Shown here piece by piece: positions 7,430 to 15,612 of a stretch of DNA of 15,612 nucleotides. This DNA is from a virus (lineage: Duplodnaviria > Heunggongvirae > Uroviricota > Caudoviricetes). The notes under the pieces were generated by a model. That model was not told the origin of the DNA. It did no database searches and saw only the letters and a program-made list of their open reading frames with translations. The stretch lies in the IMG/VR virus record IMGVR_UViG_2778261247_000017; one strand, 5' to 3'. The translations under genes were made by a program, and so were the position numbers. The stretch's first letter is position 1. Each line of letters opens with the position of its first letter.

Positions 7430-7660
7430 ACCTGTTCACCTTTTTCCTTTTCTCCTTTTAATTCATTGTGTTAATGGGTGAACAGTTTCACAAAAACTAT
7501 TCACCAACTGTTCACCACTGTTCACCCTTAAAGCTCAACAAATAATCAAAAAGGTGAACAGTGAATAGTTTGATGAACAGTTCATGAATAACTGTTCACC
7601 CTATAACCAACTGATATAGAACACATTTATTACAGGGTGAACAGTGATGAACAGTTATTC
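7430..7660. repeat. replication origin-like iteron cluster of TGTTCACC octamers (P4 ori/crr type)
   Basis: Perfect TGTTCACC at 7433, 7509, 7519 and 7593; perfect reverse copies GGTGAACA at 7477, 7553 and 7636; degenerate copies at 7498, 7561, 7574 and 7647. AT-rich flanks. Lies immediately 3' of the primase/helicase gene. Confidence 0.6.
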
Positions 7661-7667
7661 CATAAGT

Positions 7668-9482
7668 TTAATTTTTGCCATCGTCATTTGTGACCGATGC
7701 ACATGAGGGCATCCAGTCTTCTGAATCCTCTGTCAGTATCACGTTTGAACGCAAGCCATGCTTCGTTTTCCGTTTCATATACTCCCTGCCGTATTCCGCC
7801 ATTGCCCCTGGCATATCCTTACCGAAGCGTGTCAGTGTTACGGGCTTACCGAATCCGTGTGCCCTCATATACGCCAGATAGGCGTGATAGAGATACCTGC
7901 GCGGGCTGAACGGAATAATTTCAGCATTACCCACTAACAGGCCATCGCACATTACCGACGACATGAGATAGCCGCAGAAGTCCACCAGCGAATCGCCCTC
8001 GCGTTTTATCACTAGGGCTTCTTCTGATTTCTGCTGCTCATATAGCAGGCGTTTAGCTTCGTCCTGGTCAGAAAAGCGTGTAAGCAGGTGGCGAATCACT
8101 ACCGCCAGCTCTCCTTCTATTTTTTCAGCCAGCATAGGGTCACGTTCGTTCTCCGGTACAACTTCCGAAAAATTGAATATTACCCGACGACGTGATATCC
8201 CACCGCTGCGGTCACTGAATGACATGGCGTTATTGTTCACCGCCAGCACGACCGCCTGAATGCGTGTTGAGTAGGGGGCTTTATGTTTCGGGTCGATTGC
8301 CACCTTATCACCGCCTGTAATGGCCTTAATTCCTGCACCATCACCAGCGTAACGGGTCATATCCGGCATAATAATCAGCGAAAAGCCAACCACTAACGCG
8401 CGTTCCCTGGCATCTTCCAGCGCCTTCATGCTTGCCGATACCGTGTTGGCCTTACCCGCCAGCATAGTGCAAATCTCCGCCATTACGCTTTTACCGCTTC
8501 CACCCGGCCCCGTTACCTCAAGAAATAACTGCCAGTCGTACCGATTCGCCAGCACCATGAATAACGCCGCCAGTACGCGATCCGCTTTGCGTTCATTCTC
8601 TGCCACCGAACGGCGCAACCATTTCCAGAAATTCGGCGCATGCGTTGCCAGCGTTTCCCCCTCTGCTGGCGGGTTGAACGGTAATTCACTGGCAATTAAC
8701 AACCAGTCGTTTTTGTCGTGCTCCCGAAAATCGCCTGTCCGGGTATCAAAAACACCGTTACTGAATCCAATCAGGTTACGGGCGGTATTCCCCATTACGG
8801 GCAAACTTAACTTCATGGTATCGACCGCCGATTTGATGGCGTTCTGCGAATAGCTGATTTCCGCATCAATAAAAATCTGCGCCATAGCCCGCTGTAACTC
8901 TTTATCCTGTACCGGCTCCCATACAACACCGTTGTAGTGGTGAACGGTGTCAGAATCCGCATTGATTGCCAGTTCACCGCCATAATGTGCCAGGAGAACT
9001 TCGCCGCGCTGGCTTGCTCCCATCTGGTTAAGTGCCAGTGGTGTCGCGCTGTCTTCTGTTTTTTTCTTTGCCGGAAACCGGATAATCAGTCCGTCATCAA
9101 TGTTTTTACGCTCACGGGCAAGGTATTCACGCCAGTTTTCACACTTCTGGCTGTGCATGCCATCAGGGTAATAATTCGCATTCTGTATACTTGCCGCCGC
9201 CAGCTTCTGACCAATTGCCTTAACCATTACAGGATCTAACTGTCCGGCTCTGAATATGCGCGCGGATGTGCGCCCATCAGGCACTATTTGCAGATTTCCG
9301 ATCTCTTTCAGTTGTTCATCAGCCAGCACAACAGGTGGCTCATTATCTCCAGCCATACGCGCATCGTGCTCCTGCCATTGTTTCGCGTGTGCCCAGGCAT
9401 CACTACCCGCGAAAATAATTACCTCTGTGTCTTTGTGTTTTATTCCGCGTGGCTGTTTTTTTACGTTCGGTGCCAGTTTCAT
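7668..9482 (-). CDS. replication initiator: P4-alpha-like primase / SF3 helicase with C-terminal DNA-binding region
   Basis: 604 aa; ATG at 9480-9482 preceded by GGGGGG. Walker A GPGGSGKS in mid-protein. Overall layout matches phage/plasmid P4-family primase C-terminal proteins. Followed by cognate-looking iterons. Confidence 0.85.
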   Translation of the reverse strand: MKLAPNVKKQPRGIKHKDTEVIIFAGSDAWAHAKQWQEHDARMAGDNEPPVVLADEQLKEIGNLQIVPDGRTSARIFRAGQLDPVMVKAIGQKLAAASIQNANYYPDGMHSQKCENWREYLARERKNIDDGLIIRFPAKKKTEDSATPLALNQMGASQRGEVLLAHYGGELAINADSDTVHHYNGVVWEPVQDKELQRAMAQIFIDAEISYSQNAIKSAVDTMKLSLPVMGNTARNLIGFSNGVFDTRTGDFREHDKNDWLLIASELPFNPPAEGETLATHAPNFWKWLRRSVAENERKADRVLAALFMVLANRYDWQLFLEVTGPGGSGKSVMAEICTMLAGKANTVSASMKALEDARERALVVGFSLIIMPDMTRYAGDGAGIKAITGGDKVAIDPKHKAPYSTRIQAVVLAVNNNAMSFSDRSGGISRRRVIFNFSEVVPENERDPMLAEKIEGELAVVIRHLLTRFSDQDEAKRLLYEQQKSEEALVIKREGDSLVDFCGYLMSSVMCDGLLVGNAEIIPFSPRRYLYHAYLAYMRAHGFGKPVTLTRFGKDMPGAMAEYGREYMKRKTKHGLRSNVILTEDSEDWMPSCASVTNDDGKN

Positions 9483-10510: not shown

Positions 10511-10727
10511 GGTGCACCTCCTGCACATCAGCCATGATAATTTTTCCGGCCTTATCCAGTGCCTGATCGGCTTTTAGCTGCACAAATGCTAAATAATGGA
10601 AGATGCATTCTGATTCTCTGGCTGCGTGTTTATGCGCCACACCAGCGATAGCAGAAATCTCAATAAGTGAATCCATCAGCGTTTTGATAGCGTCTACCGC
10701 TGCATCAGGCCATGTTGCATTACACAT
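10503..10727 (-). CDS. small hypothetical protein (74 aa)
   Basis: ATG at 10725-10727 preceded by AGGAGGTG; 8-nt overlap ATGTGTAA with the upstream gene. Confidence 0.5.
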   Translation of the reverse strand: MCNATWPDAAVDAIKTLMDSLIEISAIAGVAHKHAARESECIFHYLAFVQLKADQALDKAGKIIMADVQEVHHA

Positions 10728-11085
10728 GCTCCACCTCCTGGCGAATACGGGCGGCGAATACCATCACGCAGCCATCAGGAGATTGCTGGCGTGCTTCCTG
10801 TTCGCTGGTGGCCTCGATGTGAATTACACGCGGTTGTGCTGTGCTCAGGGCGATAAAACGCCATATAAAATTGTTTTCGCATTTCTGAATAAACAGCGTG
10901 TTTTCTTCGCGCCCTTTCCATGTTGCCGAGATATAGCCCATGTCATTGAGCATCTCGCAGGCATCAACCAGCGTATCGGCGGCTATGTGTACAGTGTTTT
11001 TACCGTCAGCGATGCAATCACGGTGCACCGCCAGGAAGGTGTATATAAATTTAGGGTGAGTTTGGGTATGCTGTGTTCCAGCCAT
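10720..11085 (-). CDS. hypothetical protein (121 aa), first gene of the leftward replication operon
   Basis: ATG at 11083-11085 (MAGTQHTQTH) preceded by GAGGTAACG. Protein-like translation. This is the C-terminal, believable part of the 512-codon stop-free frame. Confidence 0.6.
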   Translation of the reverse strand: MAGTQHTQTHPKFIYTFLAVHRDCIADGKNTVHIAADTLVDACEMLNDMGYISATWKGREENTLFIQKCENNFIWRFIALSTAQPRVIHIEATSEQEARQQSPDGCVMVFAARIRQEVEHV

Positions 11086-11174
11086 AATCGTTACCTCGTT
11101 TAACGGTTTGGTTAGACGCCCCGCTACTGCCGCAAACAGTTCGGGGCGTTGTCGTTTACATCCTCTTACCGAGG

Positions 11175-11250
11175 TGTGATTTAAATTAAATTTAACTGAA
11201 TCACAGGTCAAGTATTTTTTGTGATTCTTTTTTGTGTATACTGAATCACA
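11175..11250. promoter_or_regulatory. divergent control region with two TGTGATT-N17-AATCACA inverted-repeat operators and a TATACT -10 candidate
   Basis: IR1 is TGTGATT (11175-11181) paired with AATCACA (11199-11205). IR2 is TGTGATT (11220-11226) paired with AATCACA (11244-11250), identical 17-bp spacing. TATACT at 11237-11242 overlaps IR2, 31 bp before the ATG at 11273. Confidence 0.5.
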
Positions 11251-11272
11251 TCTTTTGTTTAGGAGAATGCAC

Positions 11273-11578
11273 ATGGCAAAAAACACTATCAACGACAAAT
11301 CAAAACAGATTTCAATTCGTATCCCACATGATGCTTTTGAAGGCATGGAATCCGTAAAACTGGACGGCGAAAGCAACGCCGGATTCATCGTAACCGCTAT
11401 GCGCGGTGAGATCGCCCGCCGCCAGGCAGAAGGAAGAGGAGAAAATCCCTTGGTTTCTTCGCTCGATGCACTGGCGCAGGTGGAAAAAATCGGAGTCAAA
11501 GCTGCCGAGGAGATCGGGCAACTCATCACCGTCGCGCGTGAAGAACTCCAGCGCCGCAAGGCCAAAGAACAGGAGTAA
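11273..11578 (+). CDS. small regulator-like protein (101 aa), possibly the element's repressor
   Basis: ATG at 11273 preceded by AGGAGA with a 6-nt spacer. Helical, charged translation with an N-terminal KQISIRIPHDAFEGM segment that could be a ribbon-helix-helix strand. Divergent from the replication operon and flanked by the operators. Confidence 0.6.
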   Translation: MAKNTINDKSKQISIRIPHDAFEGMESVKLDGESNAGFIVTAMRGEIARRQAEGRGENPLVSSLDALAQVEKIGVKAAEEIGQLITVAREELQRRKAKEQE

Positions 11579-11635
11579 CCATCACCAGCGCCGTGGTGTG
11601 AGGAACTACGGTGCATCGTTTTACAGGGCAGCGCC

Positions 11636-11836
11636 ATGACCAACAAAGAATCAACCAATACACCATCACCGGCACGGAAAAGACAGCGCAGAAAGATAGC
11701 GTACGAGTATGAGTCAGACAGATTCGCGCCCTGTGCGTTTATCCTTGAGAAATTCCTTAAAGAGTACAGGCGCACAAAAATGGGGTCGCATACCTGGAAA
11801 ACATCGCGGCATGGCAATGTTAAAGAGCAGGAATAG
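11636..11836 (+). CDS. possible small basic protein (66 aa)
   Basis: In the same frame as 11273-11578, separated by a single TAA and 19 sense codons. Weak SD. Translation is plausible but the call is uncertain. Confidence 0.3.
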   Translation: MTNKESTNTPSPARKRQRRKIAYEYESDRFAPCAFILEKFLKEYRRTKMGSHTWKTSRHGNVKEQE

Positions 11837-11865
11837 CCCACCAGCAAGCCAGCACACTGATCACA

Positions 11866-12258
11866 TTGCCCACCAGCCGCAAATCTGGCATTGTTGGTGA
11901 TGCGTTCAAGTGTGTAGCTTTCCCACTGGTGGCCCTCTGCGGTCGCCTTTGTTTTATCCAGAACGAAATCAGACATCAGATTGGTCAGCACCTGGCGACC
12001 TGACAAAATCGCATCAGTCGCGCCACCAGCAAAATTTTTTGCTCTCCGGACAGCGTGACCAACGGCATTTTGCAGCAAAATATTCTGCATTTCTGGTGTG
12101 CTGTAGTAACGGTGATCAGCGCCTTCACTCTGTGCGACCACAACGCTATAATCTGCCTCGTAGACAGTAAGCAATATGGCGCAGTAGGCTATTCGTTCAC
12201 AAAGGCGCTCCGGCAACGGGGCGCTTTCTCTTTTTGTAACGGTCAGAACGTTACACAT
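11866..12258 (-). CDS. hypothetical protein; N-terminal about 130 codons are convincing, C-terminus unresolved
   Basis: ATG at 12256-12258 preceded by GGAGGA with an 8-nt spacer; 8-nt overlap ATGTGTAA with the antirepressor stop. The frame has no stop before 10720, so the 11866 end is my estimate of where the protein-like sequence ends. A Cys cluster C-x2-C-x8-C-x5-C follows. Confidence 0.4.
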
Positions 12259-13051
12259 GGCTGTTTTCCTCCATGCGACGGGCTAACCAACGCTGCGAAA
12301 GACGAATTAATTCAGCTTTCCGCTGGTGGTAGTCCTGGCCTAACTCAATCAGCGTGATATTGCTCTGCTCAAGGTAAGAAAGGTGCTCAAGCTGCAACGT
12401 GCTCATGTGGTCGCGTGGTTCGCCTGTGATGCCGTTCGCCTGCGCCCACTGTTTTGCAGTCATGCCACCCAGCACGATACGCGCCAGCATATTGGCTTCC
12501 GTGGTGTAGTGGTGCTGTAGAGTGTTTTTACCCAGTTCAGCCCGGTACGCCTCCAGCGCGGCACACATTGGCTTAAAGTAGCTGGCAACTGTGATACGGG
12601 CTTTCAGTTCCCGGCGTAACGCTGCGGAACGAACAGGCGCAACCTTGTGTAGCTCCTCCTCGCATTTGATAAAGTACTGGCGAACGGCGCGGCCCTGTTC
12701 GGTACGTTCGACCATCGCCAGTTCTTTCGCCATGTTCACGGTGGTGATGTACTCAAGAGCTGTTTGCTGGCGAGATTTTGCGCTCACCGGATCGGGTCGG
12801 CTCAAATATTCAACAACCTCATAATCCACGCCTTCCGTGAAGCCGTATTCTTCAATGCGCCCCTTGATCCACGAACGGAAAACGCGCCCTACACCTAACG
12901 CCTTATGCAACGCTCTGGCGCTAACAATATTGGTTTCACGCCCGCCAATAACGCCGGAAATAACCGGGATAATTTCGCCGAAATTTTGCAGATTCTGGTT
13001 TTCAGGCCGAACGAAGCCCTGCCCCTGTACGGGCGTTTTTCGCAGTTTCAT
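12251..13051 (-). CDS. phage antirepressor (AntA N-terminal / KilA-C-type)
   Basis: ATG at 13049-13051 preceded by AGGAG; 266 aa. N-terminal ARALHKALGVGRVFRSWIKGRIEEYGFTEGVDYEV is typical of the AntA/AntB antirepressor N-domain. Confidence 0.75.
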   Translation of the reverse strand: MKLRKTPVQGQGFVRPENQNLQNFGEIIPVISGVIGGRETNIVSARALHKALGVGRVFRSWIKGRIEEYGFTEGVDYEVVEYLSRPDPVSAKSRQQTALEYITTVNMAKELAMVERTEQGRAVRQYFIKCEEELHKVAPVRSAALRRELKARITVASYFKPMCAALEAYRAELGKNTLQHHYTTEANMLARIVLGGMTAKQWAQANGITGEPRDHMSTLQLEHLSYLEQSNITLIELGQDYHQRKAELIRLSQRWLARRMEENSHV

Positions 13052-13128
13052 AAAAACTCCTGCTATCGAATTAAGTTACTTTTATTTGCTGGTGGATAGC
13101 TGGGGTTTCTGGCCCCGTAGCCATTTAA

Positions 13129-13326
13129 TCAGGTAGCTGTTCCACGTGATTCCGCAATACGCTGATTAATCCACTCGTCAATTTCACTCTCAACGAAAGC
13201 AATAGCTCGCGAGCCAATTTTAACTGATGCAGGAAATTTGCCTTGCCCCATAAGGCGATAAATCCATGCCTTGCTATATCCAGTTCTACGCTGAACTTCC
13301 GTTAAACGAATAAGAGAGTTTGCCAT
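13129..13326 (-). CDS. alpA: AlpA-family phage transcriptional regulator / excisionase-like (Vis-like)
   Basis: 65 aa; ATG at 13324-13326 preceded by AAGGTGA. Motif LIRLTEVQRRTGYSKAWIYRLMGQGKFP is the AlpA/Vis HTH signature. Confidence 0.9.
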   Translation of the reverse strand: MANSLIRLTEVQRRTGYSKAWIYRLMGQGKFPASVKIGSRAIAFVESEIDEWINQRIAESRGTAT

Positions 13327-14397: not shown

Positions 14398-15612
14398 TCA
14401 CCCGCATTTTCCGAACTCACCATGCACCACATTTCCGCCATGCTCGAGCGAATCCATATAGTCGGCATACCACTGGAGCATCTCTCGGCGACCATCCAGA
14501 TATTGCGCATGGTTGTATGTGCCACGAATTGAGTTTTTATCGACGTGTGCGAGCTGTGTCTCTATCCACGCGGTGTTATAGCCCTGCTCATGCAAAATGG
14601 TGCTCATGGTGTGCCGGAATCCATGACCAGTAACCTTTCCGTTATAGCCGATGCGTTTAAATACTTGGTTTATGCTAGCCTCGCTCATTGTTTTCCTTGG
14701 ATCATTACGGCCGGGAAACATAAGCGGATAATTGCCAGTTAATTCTTTAATCTGCCCAATAAGCGAAAGAGCCTGCTTAGACAAAGGCACCACATGAGGG
14801 CGACGCATTTTCATCCGTGAAGCAGGTATCTCCCAGATAGCCTTGTTGAGATCGATTTCATCCCATAATGCACCGCGCAGTTCGCCAGTCCGCAAACCGG
14901 TGATAATCAGTAGACGAGCCGCCATAACAACCAATGCACTTCCTGAGTAACTGGACAATGCCTTGAAAAAATCAGGTAATTCTTTGGCTGTGAGGAAAGG
15001 ATAATGATTAGATTCATGACCTTGCATCGCGCTGGTGAGATCCGGTGCAGGGTTATACTCAGCACGTCCAGTGACAATTGCATAGCGGAAAACTTCCCCG
15101 CATCGCTGCCTCACTTTTTTGGCTTTTTCGGTAGCACCGCGCCCCTCGATGCGCCGCAGCACATTCAGCAGTTCAAGTGGTTTGATTTCGGTGATTGGTT
15201 TTTTGCCAATGTAAGGGAACACATCTTTATTGAAGGCTTCGAGGATGTCTGAAGCATAACCAGCAGACCATTTTTTTAATTTGCTGCAGTGCCACTCAAG
15301 GGCAATATCTTTGAAGGTGTTGTTTAACTGCGTTTTCCGGGCAATCTTTTCCTCTCGTTTCGCTTCCATCGGATCGATACCCCCAGCGATACCCCTTTTA
15401 GCTTCTTCACGTTTTGCACGAGCATCAGCCAAGGTAACTTCAGGATACACACCTAGTGCTAACAGCTTCTCTTTACCAGCTACACGATACTTGAAGCGCC
15501 AATATTTTCCTCCACTAGGTTTTACCAAGAGATACAGACCACCACCATCAGCCAGCTTGTAAGCCTTCTCTTTTGGCTTGGCAGTGTCTATTTGACGGGC
15601 ATTGAGTTTCAC
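14398..15612 (-). CDS. int: P4-family tyrosine integrase (site-specific recombinase)
   Basis: 404 codons from a GTG at the window edge (the true start may lie just outside). N-terminal arm-binding-type region (LYLLVKPSGGKYWRFKYR) and a C-terminal catalytic region with conserved residues of this family (GLRTGELRGALWDEID, HGFRHT, LAHVD, GTYNHAQY). Confidence 0.9.
   Translation of the reverse strand: MKLNARQIDTAKPKEKAYKLADGGGLYLLVKPSGGKYWRFKYRVAGKEKLLALGVYPEVTLADARAKREEAKRGIAGGIDPMEAKREEKIARKTQLNNTFKDIALEWHCSKLKKWSAGYASDILEAFNKDVFPYIGKKPITEIKPLELLNVLRRIEGRGATEKAKKVRQRCGEVFRYAIVTGRAEYNPAPDLTSAMQGHESNHYPFLTAKELPDFFKALSSYSGSALVVMAARLLIITGLRTGELRGALWDEIDLNKAIWEIPASRMKMRRPHVVPLSKQALSLIGQIKELTGNYPLMFPGRNDPRKTMSEASINQVFKRIGYNGKVTGHGFRHTMSTILHEQGYNTAWIETQLAHVDKNSIRGTYNHAQYLDGRREMLQWYADYMDSLEHGGNVVHGEFGKCG

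What the first reader, a model, noticed from the sequence alone, without database searches (positions are those of the whole stretch)
11110..11272. Divergent control region with twin operators and a GC-rich leader hairpin
Two TGTGATT-N17-AATCACA inverted repeats, 45 bp apart, lie between a rightward small regulator gene and the leftward replication operon; one overlaps a TATACT -10 candidate. A 7-bp GC stem (CGCCCCG 11117-11123 with CGGGGCG 11142-11148) sits in the leader of the leftward operon. This is the likely immunity switch of the satellite.
Basis: partly seen in the sequence, partly recalled or inferred. Interest (0 to 1): 0.45.

Follow-up and report, generated by a model that had tools for sequence, protein, structure and literature searches.

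The report
Satellite switch: repressor operators plus antisense RNA
The repeats look like genuine binding sites for a small repressor that guards the replication genes of an E. coli phage satellite. The GC hairpin most likely ends a small antisense RNA that silences the first of those genes, a control layer not yet described for such satellites.

Summary
In detail: TGTGATT-N17-AATCACA occurs at 11175-11205 and 11220-11250 (2 found, 0.12 expected), and a GC stem lies at 11116-11123/11142-11149.

The window is an EcCIMP1/EcCICFT073-type phage-inducible chromosomal island (PICI) at thrW.

**Operators.** In about 90 related loci, four sites keep their positions around a conserved leftward promoter and a rightward -10. 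Their sequence falls into at least seven classes. Each class matches a different predicted DNA-reading strand of the divergently encoded 101-aa ribbon-helix-helix (RHH) protein. No other part of that protein, nor the downstream gene, tracks the classes. The operator and repressor reading is therefore well supported.

**Hairpin.** It is better explained on the opposite strand. It is stem-loop 2, the terminator, of a predicted ~78-nt rightward antisense RNA (11080-11157). Stem-loop 1 carries the anti-Shine-Dalgarno sequence of the Icd-like first gene.
- G·U pairs: 70 on the + strand, 2 on the - strand.
- Consensus fold: -26.7 versus -12.7 kcal/mol.
- A TAnnnT box sits exactly 7 nt upstream in 44 of 44 variants.
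- A model built from these loci finds the IncQ plasmid RepX antisense RNA.

Nothing here shows transcription or binding directly. Novelty: a new variant of known kinds, undescribed in Gram-negative PICIs.

The parts
11175..11181 (.). Operator site 1 (TGTGATT). It covers the predicted start site of the leftward promoter P_L.
   Evidence: The position is conserved and the sequence is class-specific in related loci.
11199..11205 (.). Operator site 2 (AATCACA; extended form ACTGAATCACA). It abuts the -35 of P_L and fills its spacer.
11220..11226 (.). Operator site 3 (TGTGATT), upstream part of the rightward promoter P_R.
   Evidence: In other classes this site is the most degenerate of the four.
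11244..11250 (.). Operator site 4 (AATCACA), immediately after the P_R -10 and over its predicted start site.
11206..11211 (-). P_L -35, TTGACC on the - strand.
   Evidence: Read by eye and placed. TTGAC, or TTGCA in two classes, is kept at this position in nearly all 38 distinct intergenic variants. The consensus scan did not list this promoter because its -10 scores 3 of 6.
11183..11188 (-). P_L -10, TAATTT on the - strand, after a 17-nt spacer. Predicted start is about 11176.
   Evidence: Relatives have TAAAGT, TAACAT, TAATAT or TATTGT at the same 17-18 nt spacing, read.
11215..11220 (-). A-tract on the - strand (AAAAAATAC before TTGACC), resembling a proximal UP element for P_L.
   Evidence: The sequence shows it and it is conserved as a T-run. 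Assigning it as an UP element is inference.
11237..11242 (+). P_R -10, TATACT, inside the spacer between sites 3 and 4. There is no recognisable -35.
   Evidence: Relatives have TATAAT, TATATT or TATAGT in the same place.
11273..11578 (+). Gene for the 101-aa ribbon-helix-helix protein (YlcI/YnfO family), the proposed repressor. Its Shine-Dalgarno AGGAG is at 11261-11265.
11636..11836 (+). 66-aa basic protein encoded downstream of the repressor gene; function unknown.
   Evidence: phrog_21027. It is 65% identical to the gene in the same place in EcCICFT073. Its alleles do not track operator class.
11067..11072 (+). -10-like box TATGCT of the predicted antisense RNA promoter, inside codons 5-7 of the Icd-like gene.
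   Evidence: TAnnnT lies exactly 7 nt before the first base of stem-loop 1 in 44 of 44 distinct variants, against 11% in shuffles. It is kept even where the encoded peptide differs.
11080..11113 (+). Antisense RNA stem-loop 1. It has 13 pairs, and the loop CCUCGUU holds the complement of the Icd-like Shine-Dalgarno (11094-11097). The 5' arm covers the start codon (11083-11085).
11115..11150 (+). Antisense RNA stem-loop 2. This is the GC hairpin of the finding: 9 pairs plus a 4-pair inner helix.
11151..11157 (+). U-rich tail GUCGUUU after stem-loop 2, the predicted 3' end of the antisense RNA.
   Evidence: The TTT columns are invariant in alignment A2. No such run follows the stem on the - strand.
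10720..11085 (-). Icd-like first gene of the leftward operon (121 aa from the ATG at 11085), the proposed target of the antisense RNA.
   Evidence: NF033153 scores 80.4 bits over residues 73-116. The Shine-Dalgarno and ATG are conserved in relatives. PGAP annotates only 73 aa from 10941.
7668..9482 (-). P4-family primase, the last gene of the operon under P_L.
12251..13326 (-). alpA (13129-13326) and an AntA-type antirepressor gene (12251-13051). Both are transcribed towards the switch and are candidate inducers.
   Evidence: Pfam Phage_AlpA 2.4e-19 and AntA 4.1e-22. Their role in induction is inference based on PMC6092414 and PMC11773190.
5909..6439 (-). ProQ/FinO-domain ORF, a possible chaperone of the antisense RNA. 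This link is speculative.
   Evidence: PF04352 1.2e-24. PGAP marks the gene as frameshifted. FinO binds the IncQ antisense RNA RepX (PMC8136791).

Best explanation
The region is a two-layer control point for the replication operon of a Gram-negative phage-inducible chromosomal island (PICI).

**Layer 1, inferred from comparative data.** The 101-aa ribbon-helix-helix (RHH) protein binds four sites spaced 22-24 bp apart, one dimer per site.
- Sites 1 and 2 bracket the spacer, the -10 and the start site of a strong leftward promoter P_L (-35 TTGACC, 17 nt, -10 TAATTT, A-tract upstream). Occupancy should therefore block transcription of the Icd-like to primase operon.
- Sites 3 and 4 bracket the -10 of the protein's own promoter P_R, giving autoregulation.
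- Specificity lies in the N-terminal beta-strand. It has diversified into at least seven protein/site classes, which would give type-specific immunity.

**Layer 2, inferred from structure conservation and similarity to RepX.** A promoter inside the first codons of the Icd-like gene (TATGCT 11067-11072) drives a rightward RNA of about 78 nt (11080-11157).
- Stem-loop 1 presents the anti-Shine-Dalgarno sequence.
- The RNA is fully complementary to the 5' leader, Shine-Dalgarno and AUG of the P_L transcript. It should block translation of the Icd-like gene on any leaky transcript, as RepX does for repA in IncQ plasmids.

**Induction, the least supported step.** The helper phage raises AlpA. Transcription from the alpA-antA operon runs towards the switch. 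It may read through the switch, or supply the AntA antirepressor.
For: **The element.** It sits at thrW next to proA and a vat/MarR islet, and carries int, alpA, antA, Icd-like, DUF4222, primase and PerC genes. This is the layout and locus of EcCIMP1 (PMC11773190).

**Operators.**
- The pattern is non-random.
- In 38 distinct intergenic variants from 90 loci, the four site positions, the -35 between sites 2 and 3, the T-run and the P_R -10 are kept, while all four sites change together.
- Protein segment and site pair as follows: KSKQISIRIPHD with TGTGATT; KSQLTTVRVPHD with GTGTGTTTCA; KSQSLTARIPHD with GTGTAAG; KSQ(V/L)KN(V/I)RIPHD with GTGTGTATTT; KSQMTTIRVPHD with GTGAKATAYAC; KSQQINARFPHD with GGGATTCA; and in EcCICFT073, KSQALKARVPHE with GTGTGGCCCAC.
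- Residues 23-101 of the protein and the alleles of the downstream gene do not follow the classes.

**The protein.**
- The fold is strand, two helices, then a long helix, with mean pLDDT 83.
- It belongs to NCBIfam YlcI_YnfO_N.
- An RHH dimer binding one non-palindromic heptad WATCACW in either orientation over promoters is established for the omega repressor (PMC9499535). The window heptad AATCACA fits that consensus.

**Antisense RNA.**
- The + strand folds at -31.6 kcal/mol with z -4.2. The leader on the - strand gives z -2.0.
- The + strand is more stable in 35 of 35 variants.
- The consensus fold is -26.7 against -12.7 kcal/mol.
- 97.9% of cells pair, 8 pairs change on both sides, and 0 of 500 shuffles reach the observed covariation.
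- G·U cells number 70 on the + strand and 2 on the - strand.
- TAnnnT lies 7 nt upstream in 44 of 44 variants. One leader type has TGGTATGAT, an extended -10.
- 90 of 92 loci carry the motif on the same strand as the repressor gene.
- The covariance model built from these loci finds the IncQ RepX position, antisense to the repA ribosome-binding site, full length, at 26.9 bits and E 4e-4. IncQ shows the same TAGGCT-N7-AGCCAT geometry.
- RepX is a proven 75-nt, two-stem-loop antisense regulator of repA (PMC8136791).
Against: - No transcript, start site, footprint or phenotype is available. Every step is inferred from sequence.
- The consensus scan did not call P_L (its -10 is 3 of 6). P_R and the antisense promoter lack a -35 in this window (and sequence).
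- The U-tract after stem-loop 2 is interrupted (UUGUCGUUU).
- The operators adjoin the 5' end of the repressor gene. Part of the protein/site covariation could therefore reflect inheritance as one recombination block.
- Rfam RF00043 hits reach only 18.6 and 21.7 bits against a gathering score of 55.
- E-values from the home-built model are rough.
- In EcCICFT073, AlpA overexpression alone induces the island (PMC6092414). The repressor therefore cannot be an absolute block.
- The EcCICFT073 homologue lacks the C-terminal helix yet keeps the same site spacing. Bridging of sites by a tetramer is therefore not required.
Confidence: 0.7

Rival explanations
1. The GC hairpin works in the leftward mRNA. 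It would be a leader structure that attenuates, stabilises or processes the replication-operon transcript, with no antisense RNA involved.
For: The hairpin lies within the predicted P_L leader (about 11176 to 11086). The - strand can form the core stem, with a leader fold of -30.9 kcal/mol and z -2.0. Watson-Crick pairs are strand-neutral, so much of the covariation fits either strand.
Against: - 70 G·U cells exist only on the + strand against 2 on the - strand. On the - strand they become A·C mismatches.
- Even a structure predicted from the - strand alignment shows 12 against 2 the wrong way, and reaches only -12.7 kcal/mol.
- No U-run follows the stem on the - strand.
- A -10 box in fixed register and the match to RepX on the antisense strand have no role in this reading.
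Confidence: 0.1
2. The + strand hairpin is only an insulating terminator. It would stop stray rightward transcription from entering the switch, and there would be no dedicated promoter or regulatory small RNA.
For: The strand asymmetry and the U-rich tail fit any + strand terminator. The proposed promoter has only a -10 in this window.
Against: - Stem-loop 1, with the anti-Shine-Dalgarno sequence in its loop, covaries too (helix 2).
- The TAnnnT box is exactly 7 nt from the base of stem-loop 1 in 44 of 44 variants despite different coding contexts.
- The whole two-hairpin unit matches RepX.
- The unit persists in phage mEp460 beside a truncated icd remnant.
Confidence: 0.1
3. The repeats are bound by a different factor, not by the 101-aa protein. 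Candidates are AlpA, the 66-aa basic protein, or host CRP (TGTGA/TCACA).
For: TGTGA and TCACA are CRP half-site words. AlpA is the published master regulator of such islands (PMC6092414). No binding experiment exists.
Against: - CRP needs a 6-bp spacer, and here the spacer is 21 bp. Other classes replace TGTGATT with unrelated words.
- Alleles of the 66-aa gene assort independently of site class, and the gene is absent from many loci.
- Only the first 22 or so residues of the RHH protein track the sites.
Confidence: 0.07
4. The RHH protein binds the sites but is not an immunity repressor. It could act as an activator of P_L, or as an omega/ParG-like centromere-binding protein.
For: RHH proteins such as omega double as partition proteins (PMC9499535). 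P_R lacks a -35, so some activation is plausible.
Against: Sites 1 and 2 occupy the spacer, the -10 and the +1 of P_L, which are positions typical of repression. No ParA-type gene is present in the window. There are only four spaced sites, not a contiguous array.
Confidence: 0.05

Closest known systems
RepX, the R1162/RSF1010 (IncQ) 75-nt antisense RNA (Rfam RF00043)
   Same: - Two stem-loops plus a short 3' tail.
- Transcribed antisense to the Shine-Dalgarno and start codon of the first gene of a replication operon, with the anti-Shine-Dalgarno sequence in loop 1.
- Both share ...UUGGUGGUUAG... between the hairpins and a TAnnnT-N7-AGCCAU start geometry.
- A model built from the PICI loci finds RepX at full length on the correct strand.
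- RF00043 is the top Rfam hit in two divergent PICI variants.
- RepX function and its FinO binding are experimental (PMC8136791).
   Different: - Rfam scores are far below the gathering threshold (18.6 and 21.7 against 55 bits).
- The target is an Icd-like gene at the head of a primase operon in an integrated satellite, not repA of a plasmid.
- The neighbouring repressor is unrelated: the IncQ F protein shows no similarity to the RHH protein.
Omega repressor of pSM19035 (RHH protein binding WATCACW heptads)
   Same: - One dimer per non-palindromic heptad, in direct or inverted orientation, overlapping promoters (PMC9499535).
- The window heptad AATCACA fits WATCACW.
   Different: - Omega heptads are contiguous (7-10 in a row), whereas here four sites lie 22-24 bp apart.
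- The 101-aa protein has a long C-terminal helix, where omega has an N-terminal tail.
- No partition ATPase is present.
Phage immunity-I type regions: P22 (Arc and Mnt RHH repressors with sar antisense RNA), P1 (c4 RNA, icd, ant) and P4 (CI RNA with kil/eta). These comparisons come from my own knowledge.
   Same: Each combines a small RHH repressor or an immunity RNA with translational silencing of a toxic Icd/Kil-type or Ant gene at the head of an operon. The beta-strand aligns with Arc in the register R-x-P-x-[DE]-V (weak).
   Different: - No C4/CI family match was found, even with lenient settings.
- c4 and CI lie on the same strand as their target and are processed from its leader. Here the RNA is a true cis-antisense transcript.
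- There is no significant sequence similarity to Arc or Mnt.
Stl/Rpr master-repressor region of Gram-positive PICIs (SaPIs)
   Same: A repressor gene is transcribed divergently from the excision and replication operon of a phage satellite, with operators in the intergenic region (PMC6092414 introduction).
   Different: - The proteins are unrelated.
- In Gram-positive PICIs the repressor gene is co-oriented with int. Here it points towards int and lies between two leftward gene blocks.
- For Gram-negative PICIs the paper states that a global repressor is unclear and that AlpA is an activator.
EcCICFT073 and EcCIMP1 (characterised E. coli PICIs)
   Same: - The gene order is the same.
- EcCICFT073 carries the whole module: a 59-aa YlcI/YnfO protein (51% identical over the RHH domain), a 57-aa gene (65% identical), an Icd-like gene, the antisense RNA motif at 67.7 bits, and its own repeated sites.
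- EcCIMP1 occupies the same chromosomal locus (PMC11773190).
   Different: In the papers read here the module is not described as a regulator. The EcCICFT073 protein lacks the C-terminal helix.
FinP/FinO of F-like plasmids
   Same: A two-stem-loop cis-antisense RNA acts over the ribosome-binding site of a regulator gene. FinO also binds RepX (PMC8136791). The window encodes a FinO-domain protein.
   Different: No evidence links the island's FinO-domain gene to this RNA. The gene is annotated as frameshifted in this strain and is absent from EcCICFT073.

Membership tests
Ribbon-helix-helix (Arc/MetJ/CopG) DNA-binding proteins | N-terminal beta-strand followed by two helices | tested here: met
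   [not shown]
Ribbon-helix-helix (Arc/MetJ/CopG) DNA-binding proteins | Dimer forms a two-stranded antiparallel sheet that reads the major groove | not testable with these tools
   Only a monomer could be modelled. Indirect support: the only protein segment that varies with the DNA sites is the predicted strand.
Ribbon-helix-helix (Arc/MetJ/CopG) DNA-binding proteins | Significant sequence match to a curated RHH family | tested here: inconclusive
   There is no Pfam hit. NCBIfam YlcI_YnfO_N is met at 64.9 bits against 30, but that family has no assigned function. hhalign against Arc gives E 0.005 at probability 6.7%. Some database entries name relatives CopG-family or Arc-like.
R1162-like plasmid antisense RNA (Rfam RF00043, RepX) | Score at or above the Rfam gathering threshold (55 bits) | tested here: not met
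   18.6 bits in the window and 21.7 bits in EcCICFT073. These are the top hits but are sub-threshold.
R1162-like plasmid antisense RNA (Rfam RF00043, RepX) | Two stem-loops plus a 3' tail, antisense to the Shine-Dalgarno and AUG of the first replication-operon gene | tested here: met
   The structure has covariation support. Its position relative to the Shine-Dalgarno (11094-11097) and the ATG (11083-11085) is given. The reciprocal model hit on IncQ RepX scores 26.9 bits, E 4e-4.
R1162-like plasmid antisense RNA (Rfam RF00043, RepX) | The RNA is made and represses its target | not testable with these tools
   No expression data are available here.
P1 C4 / P4 CI immunity RNAs (Rfam C4 family) | Match to the C4 covariance model, and location on the same strand upstream of icd/kil | tested here: not met
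   There is no C4 hit at E up to 1 on the whole window or up to 10 on 11030-11280. The conserved structure is on the opposite strand.
Intrinsic (Rho-independent) terminator | GC-rich stem directly followed by a U-run on the transcribed strand | tested here: inconclusive
   The stem has 9+4 pairs and 6 of the next 9 bases are U, but the run is interrupted. TTT is invariant across variants. The simple scan missed it because the scan allows loops of only 3-8 nt.
Gram-negative PICI | Integrase at a tRNA/att site, alpA next to int, a primase-replicase operon followed by an iteron origin, and no phage structural set | tested here: met
   int is at 14398-15612 next to tRNA-Thr. alpA, the primase, the iterons at 7431-7665 and PerC are all present. 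The locus is the same as EcCIMP1 (PMC11773190). Mobilisation by a helper phage was not tested.
Stl/Rpr-type PICI master repressor | The repressor keeps the island silent and is lifted by a helper-phage protein | not testable with these tools
   Only operator placement over P_L supports repression. The inducer is unknown.

The most novel reading that the evidence does not exclude
Gram-negative PICIs, including the reference island EcCICFT073, would possess a so-far overlooked master-repressor system. Three parts make it up:
- A ribbon-helix-helix repressor whose beta-strand and operators have diversified into many hetero-immune classes.
- A RepX/FinP-like cis-antisense RNA over the Icd-like gene.
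- In some islands, a FinO-domain chaperone encoded by the island itself.

AlpA-driven convergent transcription, or the AntA antirepressor, would be the way the helper phage overrides this system.
Probability: 0.3. Interest if true: 0.7.

Novelty: new variant of a known kind. Interest (0 to 1): 0.55.

Why it matters
For Gram-negative PICIs the literature names only an activator, AlpA. [quoted passage not shown]

A repressor/operator module with swappable specificity sits in front of the replication operon, and it is present in EcCICFT073 itself. That gives a concrete, testable candidate for three things:
- the missing 'off' state;
- immunity between co-resident islands;
- the point where AlpA or an antirepressor acts.

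The predicted antisense RNA would extend the IncQ RepX type of replication control from plasmids to phage satellites. It would also give the FinO-domain genes found in some islands a plausible RNA partner. Finally, it would explain how a toxic Icd-like gene can sit first in the operon.

Tried and rejected
- **C4/CI-type immunity RNA.** I expected one upstream of an icd-like gene. Rfam gave no hit on the whole window or on the small region, and the strand is wrong.
- **CRP sites.** Rejected on spacing and on the class variation of the sites.
- **Foldseek against PDB.** The full model returned only noise, because the long helix dominates.
- **PDB profile search.** It suggested a helix-hairpin-helix in residues 45-86 (Hef, E 0.006). 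The model shows one continuous helix there, so I do not rely on this.
- **Mnt comparison.** Nothing found.
- **IncQ repressor F against the RHH protein.** No similarity, so only the RNA is shared with IncQ.
- **The gap 11837-12250 and its ORFs.** No family hit.
- **PADLOC on the accessory proteins.** Nothing found.
- **Locating the stem-loop 1 arm automatically.** Two first scripts were mis-indexed. One search is the valid count.
- **Fetching RSF1010 by accession.** This failed. I used an IncQ1 plasmid found by BLAST instead.
- **Literature searches.** I found no description of this module.
Full report
**1. What is in the sequence**

- TGTGATT-N17-AATCACA occurs at 11175-11205 and again at 11220-11250.
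- With up to two mismatches allowed, these are the only two matches in the window. Shuffles expect 0.12, and none of 200 shuffles gave two.
- The right arms share 11 nt.
- TATACT lies at 11237-11242, inside the second spacer.
- The GC stem is 8 bp, ACGCCCCG 11116-11123 with CGGGGCGT 11142-11149.

**2. Context**

The window is identical to a stretch of E. coli APEC IMT5155, and 1374 of 5426 complete E. coli genomes hold related DNA.

Annotation and family searches give this layout:
- integrase 14398-15612 (-), next to tRNA-Thr and proA;
- a 242-aa ORF;
- alpA 13129-13326 (-);
- an AntA-type antirepressor 12251-13051 (-);
- two rightward genes, the 101-aa YlcI/YnfO-family protein (11273-11578) and a 66-aa basic protein (11636-11836);
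- a leftward, tightly packed operon from an Icd-like gene (ATG at 11085) through DUF4222 to a P4-family primase (7668-9482);
- an iteron field (7431-7665);
- a ProQ/FinO-domain ORF and PerC.

This is the gene order and the chromosomal locus of the PICI EcCIMP1, which lies between proA and a vat/MarR islet (PMC11773190). The reference island EcCICFT073 has the same module: a 59-aa YlcI/YnfO protein and a 57-aa gene, divergent from Icd-like through to primase.

**3. The repeats are operators of the 101-aa protein**

I fetched 12 loci from other genera and 80 viral-contig loci. I aligned their intergenic regions on the conserved GTCAA, which is TTGAC on the leftward strand.

Across 38 distinct variants, four kinds of feature are constant:
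- four site positions, 22-24 bp apart;
- the -35 TTGAC between sites 2 and 3, with a -10 17-18 nt further on inside operator 1 (TAATTT here; TAAAGT, TAACAT or TAATAT elsewhere);
- a T-run that reads as an A-rich upstream element for that promoter;
- a rightward -10 (TATACT, TATAAT or TATATT) between sites 3 and 4.

What changes is the site sequence. All four sites change together, in step with residues of about 9-20 of the protein:

| Protein segment | Site |
|---|---|
| KSKQISIRIPHD | TGTGATT |
| KSQLTTVRVPHD | GTGTGTTTCA |
| KSQSLTARIPHD | GTGTAAG |
| KSQ(V/L)KN(V/I)RIPHD | GTGTGTATTT |
| KSQMTTIRVPHD | GTGAKATAYAC |
| KSQQINARFPHD | GGGATTCA |
| KSQALKARVPHE (EcCICFT073) | GTGTGGCCCAC |

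Residues 23-101 are nearly identical among several classes. Alleles of the downstream small gene assort independently of the classes.

Site orientation is not conserved. It is → ← → ← here, → → ← ← in the Erwinia class, and two direct copies in EcCICFT073. That pattern is expected if each site is bound by a two-fold symmetric dimer.

**4. The protein**

- AlphaFold with a 51-sequence alignment gives an extended N-terminal segment, helices at 19-28 and 35-52, a short linker, and one long helix at 59-100 (mean pLDDT 83).
- Foldseek found nothing, and Pfam has no model for the protein.
- A weak profile alignment to Arc puts the variable residues on Arc's DNA-reading strand.
- The omega repressor gives a precedent: one RHH dimer per non-palindromic heptad WATCACW, in either orientation, over promoters (PMC9499535). 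The window heptad AATCACA fits that consensus.

**5. Placement argues for repression**

Sites 1 and 2 cover the spacer, the -10 and the predicted +1 (about 11176) of P_L. Sites 3 and 4 flank the -10 and the +1 of the protein's own promoter. These are inferences from position. The promoter scan did not list either promoter.

**6. The hairpin belongs to the other strand**

Aligning the leader of all loci showed two conserved hairpins, not one.
- On the + strand, the 82 nt from 11079 fold into stem-loop 1 (11080-11113, loop CCUCGUU) and stem-loop 2 (11115-11150). The energy is -31.6 kcal/mol with z -4.2. The leftward leader gives z -2.0.
- In 35 of 35 sequence variants the + strand is more stable, at -30 to -39 against -18 to -27 kcal/mol.
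- RNAalifold gives -26.7 kcal/mol on the + strand and -12.7 on the - strand.
- For the + strand structure, 97.9% of cells pair, 8 pairs change on both sides, and no shuffle of 500 reaches the observed covariation. Slid controls collapse to 36-51% paired.
- The decisive asymmetry is in G·U pairs: 70 cells are G·U on the + strand, and only 2 would be G·U on the - strand. The bias persists when the structure is predicted from the - strand alignment.
- A U-rich tail (GUCGUUU, with invariant TTT) follows stem-loop 2 on the + strand only.

**7. A promoter in register**

A TAnnnT hexamer (TATGCT, 11067-11072) lies exactly 7 nt before the first base of stem-loop 1 in all 44 distinct variants, against 11% in shuffles.
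- This holds where the overlapping Icd-like N-terminus encodes different peptides: MAGTQHT, MRNHTTH, MAFKKST and MANANSN.
- One leader type has TGGTATGAT, an extended -10.
- The predicted RNA, 11080 to about 11157, is complementary to the Shine-Dalgarno (11094-11097) and the AUG (11083-11085) of the Icd-like gene.

**8. Relation to a known RNA**

- Rfam has no family above threshold. However, the best sub-threshold hit in both the window and EcCICFT073 is RF00043, the R1162-like plasmid antisense RNA (18.6 and 21.7 bits).
- The Rfam consensus maps in the sense orientation between gene F and repA of an IncQ1 plasmid.
- A covariance model built only from the PICI alignment finds that IncQ position on the antisense strand, full length, at 26.9 bits and E about 4e-4. 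The next unrelated hit scores 15 bits.
- IncQ shows the same TAGGCT-N7-AGCCAT geometry.
- That IncQ RNA is RepX: 75 nt, two stem-loops, antisense to the repA ribosome-binding site, a copy-number repressor and a FinO ligand (PMC8136791).
- The motif is present on the repressor strand in 90 of 92 loci. It also survives in the lambdoid phage mEp460 next to an icd remnant.

**9. Model and its limits**

- In the quiet state, the RHH protein holds P_L shut and limits its own synthesis.
- In the quiet state, the antisense RNA silences translation of the Icd-like gene on leaky transcripts.
- On induction, the published facts are that the helper phage raises AlpA, and that AlpA is needed, and in EcCICFT073 sufficient, for induction (PMC6092414, PMC11773190).
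- Here alpA and antA point towards the switch. Read-through transcription or the antirepressor could override it. This step is speculation.
- No step has expression or binding data.
- The operator/protein covariation could be inflated by physical linkage.
- The promoters are weak by consensus.
- The EcCICFT073 protein lacks the long helix, so site bridging is not required.

**10. Novelty**

RHH repressors, heptad operators and RepX-type antisense RNAs are all known kinds. Their presence as a conserved module in Gram-negative PICIs, with at least seven specificity classes, is not described in the papers I could search. Those papers treat YlcI/YnfO and Icd as accessory genes (PMC13612085) and state that a global repressor is unclear (PMC6092414).

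Noticed in passing
window 7431-7665: An iteron field just downstream of the primase gene holds at least ten copies of GGTGAACAG(T)/ACTGTTCACC in both orientations. It is probably the island's replication origin. It also produced spurious microRNA hits in Rfam.
   Followed up: partly
window 10720-11085 (-): RefSeq annotates the Icd-like gene as 73 aa from the ATG at 10941. A conserved Shine-Dalgarno and ATG at 11085 give 121 aa. Relatives with short Icd-like genes start directly at this leader, so the annotated start is probably wrong. The 512-aa ORF at 10720..12258 is a spurious read-through.
   Followed up: partly
window 5909-6439 (-) and 5625-5912 (-): A ProQ/FinO-domain ORF (PF04352, 1.2e-24; marked frameshifted by PGAP) lies next to a PerC-family gene. 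FinO binds the IncQ RepX RNA (PMC8136791), so this protein could partner the predicted antisense RNA.
   Followed up: no
L033 1500-2230 (also L037, L046, L036): Some islands carry two switch modules in tandem. L033 has a second antisense-RNA motif (1564-1644) and a second 59-aa RHH gene with yet another reading strand, KSQKLQARAPHE, at 1760-1939.
   Followed up: partly
L094 2520-2640 (phage mEp460_ev081): A lambdoid phage carries the -10 box, stem-loop 1 and stem-loop 2 intact, with a new compensated stem. The icd gene beside them is cut to 14 codons, and a mokW/hok-like gene lies nearby. Either the RNA has a life of its own or the deletion is recent.
   Followed up: partly
window 11162-11174: A small inverted repeat, CCTC-TTACC-GAGG, lies right at the predicted 5' end of the P_L transcript. 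Other classes have CACCTTG...CAAGGTG in the same place. It may be a 5' stabilising hairpin.
   Followed up: no
window 11060-11068 and 11106-11114: There is a direct repeat GTTTGGGTA / GTTTGGTTA 46 nt apart. One copy lies in the Icd-like codons just before the -10 box, and the other forms the 3' arm of stem-loop 1 (D2). Its meaning is unknown.
   Followed up: no
window 11588-11614, 11928-11947, 12202-12227 (+) and the gap 11837-12250: Three + strand terminator-like hairpins follow the repressor and 66-aa genes. The 414-bp gap before antA has no ORF with a family match.
   Followed up: partly
window 11273-11578, residues 45-86 of the protein: There is a weak profile match to the helix-hairpin-helix of Hef/XPF (E 0.006). 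It is not borne out by the model, which shows one continuous helix.
   Followed up: partly
window 2153-3645 (-): A DUF4747 protein (297 aa) and an overlapping 199-aa ORF sit in the accessory end of the island. Neither has a PADLOC match, and the 199-aa ORF has no Pfam match. They are a possible cargo or defence pair.
   Followed up: no
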